64,000 bases of DNA from Saccostrea cucullata. Lineage: Eukaryota. The translations under genes and the position numbers were made by a program. Where the stretch lies: assembly GCF_032062105.1 (NCBI RefSeq), contig NW_026927183.1, positions 62,001 through 126,000 of the forward strand, written 5' to 3'. The notes under the pieces were generated by a model that was given only the letters and a program-made list of their open reading frames with translations, was not told the origin of the DNA and made no database searches. This document shows positions 7,601 to 10,600 of this stretch, piece after piece (the first letter of the stretch is position 1; every line of letters begins with the position of its first letter).

Positions 7601-10600
7601 TTGTGGCTTCCTCACTGATTTCTCTAAGACACAATAGTAACATTCATTCTAAAATTCAAAACCAAATAATTTTTTTTTATTGACTTTTGGATTATTTCTC
7701 TGCTGATCTTCTCCAAATATTCATCATGATTGGCAAATGAACAATTTGTTCACATGGATCAATTTTCTTGTGAAAGTGGGGATTCAATGGCTAAATATCC
7801 AAACTAAAGTAACTTGAACAAAGATGTTTTAGGTATACATACAGTGAAAATTCTATATGTAAATCTGTGATGACAGACTATTTCATATCTACCTTGAACA
7901 TACTTGAGCTTACAACGAAATTTTTTTATTAGCATATATTTACATCCACTGAATAATTTCTCCTTTATTTCTTAAGAAAACCCACTGCGTTAATCACTGC
8001 ATGAACTACATTAGGCATGTCGCCTGTACAGATTTCTTGATCAGTGGCTGTTCCATCAATGAAACGTATAAAGATGTTCGCATCATTAATACAATAATTA
8101 ACCTTTTTAATCCTATTTTAAACGATTATTTAAACAGTTATAAATATAAACAATAAAATGTCTTTCTTTGTTTGTTATTACTGGAATTAACGGTCGCAGC
8201 TATTGCAGAAAAAATTTACATAACCCACTTAATTTTTTCTGCAACAGCTGCTTCCGTTAATTCCAGTAATAACAAACAAAGAAAGCATTTTATTGTTTAA
8301 GTGAACAAAGTATTTTTACTTCAATCTTGACCATTTTGGGCTCAATCATGAACAAAATATTTCTTAGTTTCATTAAAATGTGTGTTACTGTAACAAAAGG
8401 CCTATGGACCAGAAGGCTCAGCACAGTAACTAAGTCTCATTTTAAAAGATTATTTTTCTCCCTTCTTATTTCCTTGAATTTACATTTCAAACTGTTGTCC
8501 AAAACATGTGATAGCTTCAAAATGACTAAACCGAACAACACAATGATACTTCAGTAAATCTGTACGACAAACACAATGTATATCTATCATACTTGCCAAC
8601 CTCCAGCATGTAAAAATCTGGTCATGACCAGATTTGGAAAGTAAAAAATCTGGTCATAACGCGTAACGACATTCACGAATTTACCATGATTAAATTTTAT
8701 ACATATATACAAAGTATTTGTGTATTGAGAATTCTTTTATTGAAAATTAATGAAAAAGGATTTAATTTACTATGACAAAAAAATTCATACATAATTTGCT
8801 TTAATTTACATGTTAAAAATAAAAATTGAAGGTTTCATATTTCAGTATTGACCTGAAGTAAATGTGCATTTTTTTTAAAAAAGCCTTTTCAGTTTCTGCT
8901 AAATTTGAAAGTATACCAATTTCAGTTTTGAAGTTGTTTTTCCTCTCTCTTAATGAATTAACTACTGCATCATGTTTTAAATTTGAAGTTAGGCCTACAC
9001 TTCTTTGATCACTTTATTTTATCTAGAATGAAAGTTTTTTTCCCCAAGATTCCTTGATATGTACATAAATATCGCTTCTCTTTTTCTTGGTTCAATCAGA
9101 GACATGTGTTTGGTTCAATTTGTTCCTGTTGGCCCTGATAATGATCTAGTTCTATCGGAAGCCATTTTAATTGACTTCAAACATTGATTTGTCAAAACAA
9201 CACCCAGTTAATTGTTTACACCTGCACTGATAATTAATCCATCAGCATTGTTTACGTAGATCCAGAGACGTATACGTCTCTGGTAGATCTAAGCTTGGGT
9301 TGTAACTGGAAGTTCAAAGTGCAACCTAATTTACGAACCAAATCCGGAAATCGGGAGATTTTCAGGTTATTCTGCAAAAATCGGGTGAAAAGCATGACCC
9401 GCTGGGTCATAAAAAATAATCTGGTTACGGGTTGAAAAATCGGGTGAGTTGGCAACTATGATATCTATATGGCACATCTACATTGAACATGCTGAATTTA
9501 CTTGTGAATATGAACATACTGAACTTACTTGTAAATATGAATATACTGAACTTACTTGTGAATATGAACATACTGAAATTACTGGTGAACAGGAACATAA
9601 TGAACTTACTTGTGAACATGAACATGTTGAACTTACTTGTGAACATGAACATGTTGAACTTACTTGTGAAGATGAACATACTGAACTTACTTGTGAACAT
9701 GAACATACTGAACTTACTTGTGAACATGAACATGTTGAACTTATGAACATACTGAACTTACTTGTGAATATGAACATACTGAACTTACTTGTGAATATGA
9801 ACATGCTGAACTTACTTGTGAATATGAACATGTTGAACTTACTTGTGAACATGAACTTGAACTTACTTGTGAACATGAATATGTTGAACTTACTTGTGAA
9901 CAAAAACTATTTCTACATCCACATCCTCTCTATCTTTGTGAAGAAAATCTTTTAGAAAATTGGACACAGAATCAAAGGTGATATGGCCACACACTACAAT
10001 ATGCCTGAAAGAAAGATAAATATTTTAAACACAACAGATTTAATTACTTGAAGTTTCTTAACAGTAAGTACTTTAACATTGACACAACTAGATATCATTG
10101 AGATGGTGGCCATCTCAAAGGGCCCCGCTTTCAACAATGAACATGAAAATGTAAGGTAGTTTAAAAGGGTTTATTTTGAAGAGGAACATTTGTGTACTAC
10201 AGTAAAAGTTGTTTCGTACCACTTCACGGATATTGCAAATTTACAGATATATATTGAAGTTATCTTGTTTCCCCAGCTATAAAAATTTAAGGAATTCATT
10301 AAACAGATATGACGAATTACGGATATAGCGAAGTTATTTCATAGGTCTCAGTGACTTCTTTATAACTGAGTTTAAATGTATTATGGAATGTGTTGTTTGA
10401 GGCTGACTGAAATTAAGGGGAAAAATTTATGCACCAAACAAAGATTTTAAACAGAGAGGCTAATTCTGACCATGACCTAGAAACTTCCACCAAGGTCACT
10501 GCATACCCATTGACCAGTGGCACTCTGTGGGTGATGTATGAGCCAGATTGGGACAAGGAGAGAGAAGAAATGCTCCGGACAAGGATTTTTCATATAATTC

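What the first reader, a model, noticed from the sequence alone, without database searches (positions are those of the whole stretch)
9483..9901. 27-bp x15 donor ladder after the first RCK1 exon: every alternative rung truncates the channel
Seen: 12 extra perfect GTAAGT donors (plus GTAAAT and GTAATT variants) spaced mostly 27 nt apart and matching the authentic one. Although 27 is a multiple of 3, the intron is phase 2, so reading past the first donor gives AAG TAA, an immediate stop. Inference: use of any downstream rung gives an NMD substrate or a pore-intact subunit lacking nearly all of the Ca2+-sensing gating ring. How the proximal site wins against 12 near-identical competitors is itself a question.
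Basis: partly seen in the sequence, partly recalled or inferred. Interest (0 to 1): 0.7.

Follow-up and report, generated by a model that had tools for sequence, protein, structure and literature searches.

The report
Repeated splice donor in oyster Slo1
The end of one exon of an oyster BK potassium-channel gene, with its splice signal, is copied about 15 times into the next intron; the few RNA reads available, from a related oyster, use only the first signal, so this is likely a tolerated repeat of a kind already known from human and lancelet genes and common in this genome.

Summary
A 27-bp minisatellite (9484-9902, minus strand) starts 9 nt inside the first RCK1 exon of an oyster Slo1 gene. 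It carries 13 GTAAGT donors and two degenerate ones, and any read-through meets AAG TAA.

(1) The stop is generic: 7 of 8 phase-2 slo donors give it, six of them with no ladder.
(2) Ladders are a habit of this genome: 3 of 27 slo donors have one (4 with a 2.4-copy duplication). Triple-donor patterns match 105 and 262 times against 3 and 0 for reversed controls.
(3) In RNA, 10 of 10 listed junction reads and one contig join 9894 to 6196, with no depth on rungs 2-3. These animals differ by about 3% in exons, may lack the array, and NMD was not blocked.

The class is published: human F7, CBS, LMNB2, PDGF and lancelet 'mirages', where the upstream donor mostly wins. This scan noted it on other DNA, twice in this genome. 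New member of a known kind; low interest.

The parts
9484..9902 (-). 27-bp exon/intron-junction minisatellite ('mirage' type): about 16 units, 15 donor-like sites; unit = last 9 nt of the exon + first 18 nt of the intron
9894..10004 (-). Slo1 exon encoding the start of RCK1 (111 nt, phase 2 at both ends)
9888..9893 (-). authentic (most upstream) donor GTAAGT; its TAA at 9892-9890 is the read-through stop
   Evidence: used in 10 of 10 listed reads of run X23 and one contig of X2
9496..9866 (-). 14 downstream pseudo-donors (12 GTAAGT, GTAATT at 9582, GTAAAT at 9501) and six weak GTATGT sites
   Evidence: no read depth over 9816-9892 in four runs
6197..9893 (-). host intron, 3697 nt, phase 2
6091..6196 (-). 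next Slo1 exon (acceptor partner); no second copy of it found in the window or the 63 kb beside it
18739..19418 (-). second donor ladder in the same gene: about 70 bp x 10, starting 12 nt inside the pore/S6 exon (donor G at 19406)
19797..20112 (-). 134-bp x 2.4 duplication spanning the donor (20085) of the S4-S5 exon
1498..36522 (-). Slo1 (BK channel alpha subunit) coding exons inside the window; the gene continues past the left end (L040, L039, L038), where a third ladder (40 bp x 20) follows an RCK2 exon

Best explanation
A 27-bp piece spanning the end of the first RCK1 exon of an oyster Slo1 gene and the start of its intron is repeated about 16 times, and it is likely a tolerated minisatellite whose extra donors stay mostly silent because the spliceosome likely commits to the most upstream donor. 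Shown: the unit, the donors, the stop, three further junction repeats in the same gene, many unrelated ones across the genome, and first-donor use in a related oyster's RNA. Inferred: (a) origin by slippage or unequal exchange seeded by the short T(G/A)TTCA match that lies once at the exon end and again 27 nt on, followed by unit turnover; (b) choice of the first donor by exon definition or oriented scanning from the 111-nt exon, as shown for human F7; (c) rare use of a lower rung gives a stop two bases into the intron and is removed by NMD, which makes the array cheap to carry but is not its purpose.
For: The array begins inside the exon and its first unit is the real junction. In slo, 3 of 27 donors have arrays of 3 or more copies (4 of 27 with the 134-bp duplication) and 0 of 26 acceptors examined do. 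Genome-wide, AGGTAAGT x3 gives 105 matches against 3 for the reversed pattern, on 31 listed contigs with mostly unrelated units; CAAGTAAGT x3 gives 262 against 0 (matches overlap, and one array gives more than half of the 100 listed). Of 29 reading frames ending at such a first donor, 7 pass Pfam's cut-off, each running to the last residue. GC is 0.43 upstream against 0.33 downstream, higher upstream in 17 of 23 loci, p = 0.0008. Two duplicate locus pairs differ in copy number (ValRS 32.1 against at least 44.1; 4.2 against 10.2), a third does not (3.0 and 3.0). The stop is generic, 7 of 8 phase-2 slo donors. RNA: 10 of 10 listed reads and one contig join 9894 to 6196, with zero depth on 9816-9892. 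The array RNA has no unusual fold (z -0.46), so position rather than structure is the likelier selector. The two damaged donors are rungs 12 and 15, at the far end. Precedent: PMC1557585, PMC3087553, PMC3902484.
Against: The reads come from animals that differ from the window at 11 of 370 exon positions in the X2 contig. They may be another species or lineage, and whether they carry the array is unknown, so the RNA may not test donor competition at all. Ten reads allow up to about 26% alternative use (95% bound, my arithmetic), the library is poly(A)-selected with NMD intact, and the tool lists loose ends only from 3 reads. In human CBS and 6-16 two pseudo-sites are used besides the authentic one (PMC1557585, introduction). 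My simple exon-likeness test passed only 12 of 24 loci upstream, against 5 of 23 controls and 140 of 1000 random positions. Scanning was shown in mammalian cells, not in molluscs.
Confidence: 0.8

Rival explanations
1. Leaky but unselected: rungs 2-3 are used at a low level, as in human CBS and 6-16, giving NMD-degraded transcripts with a small, copy-number-dependent loss of Slo1 mRNA and no function.
For: Rungs 2 and 3 are identical to the authentic site from -9 to +9 and lie only 27 and 51 nt away. CBS and 6-16 use two pseudo-sites (PMC1557585, introduction). NMD would hide the products in oligo-dT libraries.
Against: No depth over 9816-9892 in four runs. F7, LMNB2, PDGF and lancelet Adh3, globin and TnC arrays use only the authentic site.
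Confidence: 0.12
2. Regulated rheostat: cells shift splicing to lower rungs to lower BK dosage through NMD or to make a 390-residue pore subunit without the Ca2+-sensing gating ring.
For: Every rung truncates. Truncated Slo-1 splice variants are abundant in Trichuris, and a mouse Slo1 cut after S6 forms a functional channel (PMC4270693, passages). Four slo donors carry junction repeats, and rung 2 of each gives a stop or frameshift.
Against: One extra donor would do the same job; 14 add nothing, since all give the same stop. The stop is generic to phase-2 GT(A/G)A introns. Ladders occur in ValRS, KNTC1, PTP, myotubularin and other unrelated genes. No such transcript was seen. None of the seven bivalve Slo1 proteins printed stops here, though that search was keyed on the pore exon and does not survey isoforms.
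Confidence: 0.06
3. The array is partly an assembly artefact (collapsed or inflated copies) or an unrelated satellite that happens to hold GTAAGT.
For: No raw DNA reads were examined. A nearby exon shows a seven-residue oddity that may be sequencing error.
Against: The units carry shared diagnostic variants (mean pairwise identity 90%). The first unit is the coding exon end itself. The unit has no copy elsewhere: the only other hit was a different 30-bp ladder at 68-70% identity, which follows a KNTC1 exon.
Confidence: 0.02

Closest known systems
Human F7 intron 7 37-bp VNTR (Borensztajn et al. 2006, PMC1557585; seen: abstract, introduction, discussion)
   Same: The first unit spans the exon-intron boundary and identical donors are repeated into the intron. 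Only the most upstream donor is used, and pseudo-sites are functional when it is lost.
   Different: Unit 37 bp with 4 exonic nt and 5-9 copies, against 27 bp with 9 exonic nt and about 16 copies. The F7 donor is weak (UGG/gugggu); here it is GTAAGT. In F7 some pseudo-sites are in frame, so a stop is not what silences them.
Human CBS IVS13 (15-20 copies), 6-16 intron 2 (25 pseudo-sites), LMNB2 (100 bp x 10-15), PDGF intron 4 (81 bp x 16-18), as summarised in the introduction of PMC1557585 (primary papers not read)
   Same: Same architecture and similar copy numbers.
   Different: CBS and 6-16 use two pseudo-sites as well; no such use was seen here, at low depth.
Amphioxus 'mirage' minisatellites: Adh3, globins BflGb6 and BflGb9, troponin C, PGBD5 (PMC3087553, passages; PMC3902484, one passage)
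   Same: Tandem duplications of exon/intron boundaries in a marine invertebrate, in several genes, variable in length between haplotypes, not disturbing splicing.
   Different: Lancelet cases include both boundaries. Here donors dominate (4 of 27 against 0 of 26 in slo; the acceptor pattern gave 44 against 48 control), and the genome holds many more cases than the handful listed for lancelets in those passages.
Truncated Slo-1 variants of Trichuris (PMC4270693, passages)
   Same: Partial or whole intron retention creating early stops in a slo gene.
   Different: Those transcripts were observed, lie mostly in the S4-S6 region and are not tied to a donor array in the passages seen.

Membership tests
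Exon/intron-junction minisatellite ('mirage', F7 type) | Tandem array of a 10-160 bp unit | tested here: met
   27 bp x 16.0, 84% matches
Exon/intron-junction minisatellite ('mirage', F7 type) | First unit spans a real exon-intron boundary | tested here: met
   Unit = 9 exonic + 18 intronic nt; the junction at 9894 is used in RNA
Exon/intron-junction minisatellite ('mirage', F7 type) | Splice signal repeated in most units | tested here: met
   13 perfect and 2 degenerate donors
Exon/intron-junction minisatellite ('mirage', F7 type) | Authentic upstream site used, pseudo-sites mostly silent | tested here: inconclusive
   10 of 10 listed reads and one contig use 9894, but from animals about 3% divergent whose array status is unknown
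Exon/intron-junction minisatellite ('mirage', F7 type) | Length polymorphism (VNTR) | not testable with these tools
   Only one copy of this locus is in the assembly. Other ladders differ between duplicate contigs in 2 of 3 pairs.
Regulated AS-NMD (poison splice site) switch | Alternative site creates a premature stop well upstream of a later junction | tested here: met
   Stop at 9892-9890; the next junction lies about 130 nt downstream for rung 2; generic for phase-2 donors
Regulated AS-NMD (poison splice site) switch | Alternative junction detectable, increased by NMD block | tested here: inconclusive
   None seen in 10 listed reads without NMD block
Regulated AS-NMD (poison splice site) switch | Element conserved across species | not testable with these tools
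   No relatives' genomes are held
Slo1 / BK channel alpha subunit | S0-S6 plus RCK1 and RCK2 with a Ca2+ bowl, in collinear exons | tested here: met
   Exons collinear with P0002 over nearly all of its 1194 residues, including QDDEDDPD; PDB matches

The most novel reading that the evidence does not exclude
The four junction repeats of oyster Slo1 are length-variable and leaky, so alleles with more rungs divert more pre-mRNA to NMD or to a gating-ring-less 390-residue subunit and tune BK dosage between animals. The many other donor ladders in the genome would then be a hidden layer of heritable expression variation in oysters.
Probability: 0.07. Interest if true: 0.55.

Novelty: new member of a known kind. 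Interest (0 to 1): 0.17.

Why it matters
As a single locus it matters little: it is one more junction-spanning minisatellite whose first donor is used. The wider point is of modest value. This oyster genome holds many such donor ladders with unrelated units. By eye, 12 of 63 minisatellites in 654 kb begin at an exon end, two of them being the arrays that led me to those contigs. That suggests thousands genome-wide (a rough, upward-biased guess) and a donor-over-acceptor bias. Such a set, with length alleles, would be a natural experiment on 5' splice-site choice outside mammals and on why minisatellites arise or survive at donors. Searches listed no paper on this in oysters, but the library lacks most subscription journals.

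Tried and rejected
Dispersed satellite family: rejected; the unit has no second copy in G000.

RNA structure hiding lower rungs: not supported (z -0.46; 37 of 100 shuffles fold as well).

Selection to keep the donor cores intact: not supported. By my count there are about 3 independent changes in the 9 core columns and about 9 in the other 18, and the damaged donors lie at the far end.

Selection for truncating ladders: not supported; 3 of 22 give open in-frame insertions. Phases of loci without a Pfam hit were taken from the longest open frame, and rung-2 positions are approximate for several loci.

A mutually exclusive twin of the 6196 exon or of the RCK1 exon: none found in the window plus L034-L040.

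Acceptor ladders as an equally common class: the pattern gave 44 against 48 control matches, mostly one repeat family. A few likely acceptor-side arrays exist (L101, L086).

The first lay was swamped by interspersed-repeat reads and did not list the loose end at 6196. The word shares of 0.04-0.13 are no evidence of species identity. The automated exon finder missed several real cases.

Rows dropped: 6 of 30 pattern-found loci were left out (four duplicate copies, two where the walk did not reach the array start), and one more lacked a downstream flank for the GC test. One search crashed after 22 of 30 loci and was replaced. One search printed 28 of the 63 arrays.

Searches gave only the papers cited; one search gave no paper that I used for the phase-2 stop effect, which rests. 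No supplements were opened; those of PMC3087553 hold the mirage alignments.

Full report
Observation. The array is as described. TRF gives a 27-bp unit in 16.0 copies at 9484-9902. On the minus strand there are 13 GTAAGT donors, the authentic one with its G at 9893 and 12 more down to 9528, plus GTAATT at 9582 and GTAAAT at 9501. Twelve of 14 spacings are 27 nt, one is 24 and one is 44. Chance expectation is about 0.08. Each unit is the last 9 nt of the exon plus the first 18 nt of the intron; mean pairwise identity of 14 full units is 90%. Six weaker TCA|GTATGT sites also lie in the units.

Host gene. The exon 10004-9894 matches Aplysia BK residues 333-368 (E 4.7e-17) and human 344-379. The pore exon is 98% identical to a Saccostrea echinata Slo1, P0002, so the animal is an oyster, likely a rock oyster. 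P0002 maps in collinear exons from window 36522 to about 1498 and on into L040, L039 and L038. The intron after the exon is phase 2, and read-through gives His-Lys-stop, ending the protein at residue 390 of about 1194. No twin of this exon or of the next one was found.

The stop is not special. Of the 8 phase-2 donors among 27 slo donors, 7 give a stop at the first full intron codon, and 6 of those 7 have no ladder. It follows from phase 2 plus GTAA or GTGA. Among 22 ladders examined in this genome, rung 2 gives a stop in 14, a frameshift in 5 and an open in-frame insertion in 3 (phases partly inferred). By a rough estimate that is what chance would give.

The ladder is not special either. In slo alone the pore/S6 donor (19406) starts a 70-bp array of about 10 copies, and an RCK2 donor starts a 40-bp array of about 20 copies. 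The S4-S5 donor lies in a 134-bp duplication. That is 3 of 27 donors with arrays, or 4 of 27, against 0 of 26 acceptors examined (the first coding exon and one exon cut by a locus edge had no acceptor to examine, and at least one short exon of P0002 was not mapped).

Genome-wide, three AGGTAAGT at 15-30 nt gaps match 105 times against 3 for the reversed pattern, on 31 listed contigs with mostly unrelated units. The same with CAAGTAAGT gives 262 against 0, with overlapping matches and one long array dominating the listing. An acceptor pattern gives 44 against 48. Of 29 open frames ending at a first donor, 7 pass Pfam cut-offs (KNTC1_N, tRNA-synt_1, Y_phosphatase, Myotub-related, HisK-N-like, Fibrinogen_C, EGF_LMN_ATRN) and one more is weak (Na_H_Exchanger). 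GC is higher upstream of the first donor than downstream of the array in 17 of 23 loci (0.43 against 0.33, p = 0.0008). A crude exon test passed 12 of 24 upstream flanks, 5 of 23 controls and 140 of 1000 random positions. In 654 kb, 12 of 63 minisatellites begin at what looks by eye like an exon end; two of these led me to the contigs, and all four contigs were chosen for holding a ladder, so the rate is biased upward. Two of three duplicate locus pairs differ in copy number.

RNA. One search offered three raw poly(A) runs of one study and older contigs. On window 9816-10120, run X23 has 10 reads with a loose end at 9894, all agreeing with the start of the 6196 exon. The X2 contig runs from the 6091-6196 exon (record 695-800) straight into 9894-10003 (record 801-910). 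Depth over 9816-9892, which holds rungs 2 and 3, is zero in all four runs. X21 had one or two reads there, below the listing limit, and X22's reads did not reach the junction. Limits: the contig differs from the window at 11 of 370 exon positions, and the listed differences are shared by every read, so these animals may be another species or lineage that lacks the array. Ten reads allow up to about 26% alternative use, and NMD was intact. The RNA confirms the gene model firmly and the silence of the rungs only weakly.

Mechanism. Shown: the anatomy, the stop, the abundance of the class, first-donor use in a relative. Inferred: a short T(G/A)TTCA match at the exon end and 27 nt downstream likely seeded a slippage or unequal-exchange duplication, which then expanded into the intron; units share variants, one unit lost its GT, and the two damaged donors lie at the far end. 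Expansion on the intron side leaves the coding sequence intact as long as the upstream donor is chosen. The array RNA folds no better than shuffles (z -0.46), so position is the likelier cue. In human F7, 50 constructs showed that downstream pseudo-sites are functional but lose to the most upstream site, including sites that would not create a stop (PMC1557585; abstract, introduction and discussion read). Rare mistakes here would be cleared by NMD (rule recalled).

Comparison. The feature meets the three structural criteria of junction-spanning minisatellites. These are known from human F7, CBS, 6-16, LMNB2 and PDGF and from lancelet 'mirages' in Adh3, globins, troponin C and PGBD5, which do not disturb splicing (PMC3087553 passages; PMC3902484 passage). 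CBS and 6-16 do use two pseudo-sites, which keeps a leaky reading open (0.12). Truncated Slo-1 transcripts exist in Trichuris and a core-only mouse channel conducts (PMC4270693 passages), which keeps the regulatory reading possible but unsupported (0.06). Searches listed no paper on such repeats in oysters. This scan's own notes report the same class in several other genomes and twice in this one; I used them as leads only. One of them reports use of the last donor, so upstream choice is not universal.

Verdict. Real, correctly described, and ordinary: a new member of a known kind, interest 0.17. The part worth keeping is the genome-wide abundance and donor bias, not this locus.

Noticed in passing
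window 18739-19418 and 19797-20112; L038:9110-9905: Three more donor-spanning repeats in the same slo gene (70 bp x 10, 134 bp x 2.4, 40 bp x 20).
   Followed up: yes
window 26104-26124 (minus), S3 exon 26153-26042: Seven residues read IWKHLQV where all seven bivalve Slo1 proteins printed have WLE(I/V)FSF; the length and frame are kept, and pieces of the expected peptide appear in the other two frames. It may be local indel errors in the assembly or a real change; no second S3 exon was found.
   Followed up: partly
G000:C8113:197439-199556 and beyond: A 35-bp CAAGTAAGT array of about 60 copies or more; its host exon was not checked.
   Followed up: no
L003:1240-2198 and L052:9577-9693: A KNTC1-like exon is followed by a 30-bp x 32 donor ladder whose rungs would be in frame and stop-free (10 aa each); another 30-bp ladder lies about 14 kb upstream.
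   Followed up: partly
L101:7559-8232 and L086:3561-3778: Arrays whose units hold a polypyrimidine tract and AG, likely acceptor-side ladders; L101 ends at an exon-like stretch.
   Followed up: no
L005/L029, L004/L033, L064/L068, L057/L066: Near-identical loci on two contigs, likely uncollapsed haplotypes; ladder copy number differs in two of the three pairs compared.
   Followed up: partly
window 54331-57010 (minus): Exons of an annexin-like gene, recognised by eye from the translations (name recalled, not searched).
   Followed up: no
window 61398-62257 (minus): Open frames with a C-terminal RING-like motif, IAP-like by eye (name recalled, not searched).
   Followed up: no
window 10473-11463, 13625-14637, 49741-50087: 146-, 147- and 141-bp satellite arrays; the first two lie in slo introns, and the 146-bp one does not overlap a splice site mapped.
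   Followed up: no
window 5180-8380 (parts): Interspersed repeats in slo introns draw hundreds of unstranded RNA reads from other loci, against a depth of 1-11 on slo exons.
   Followed up: no
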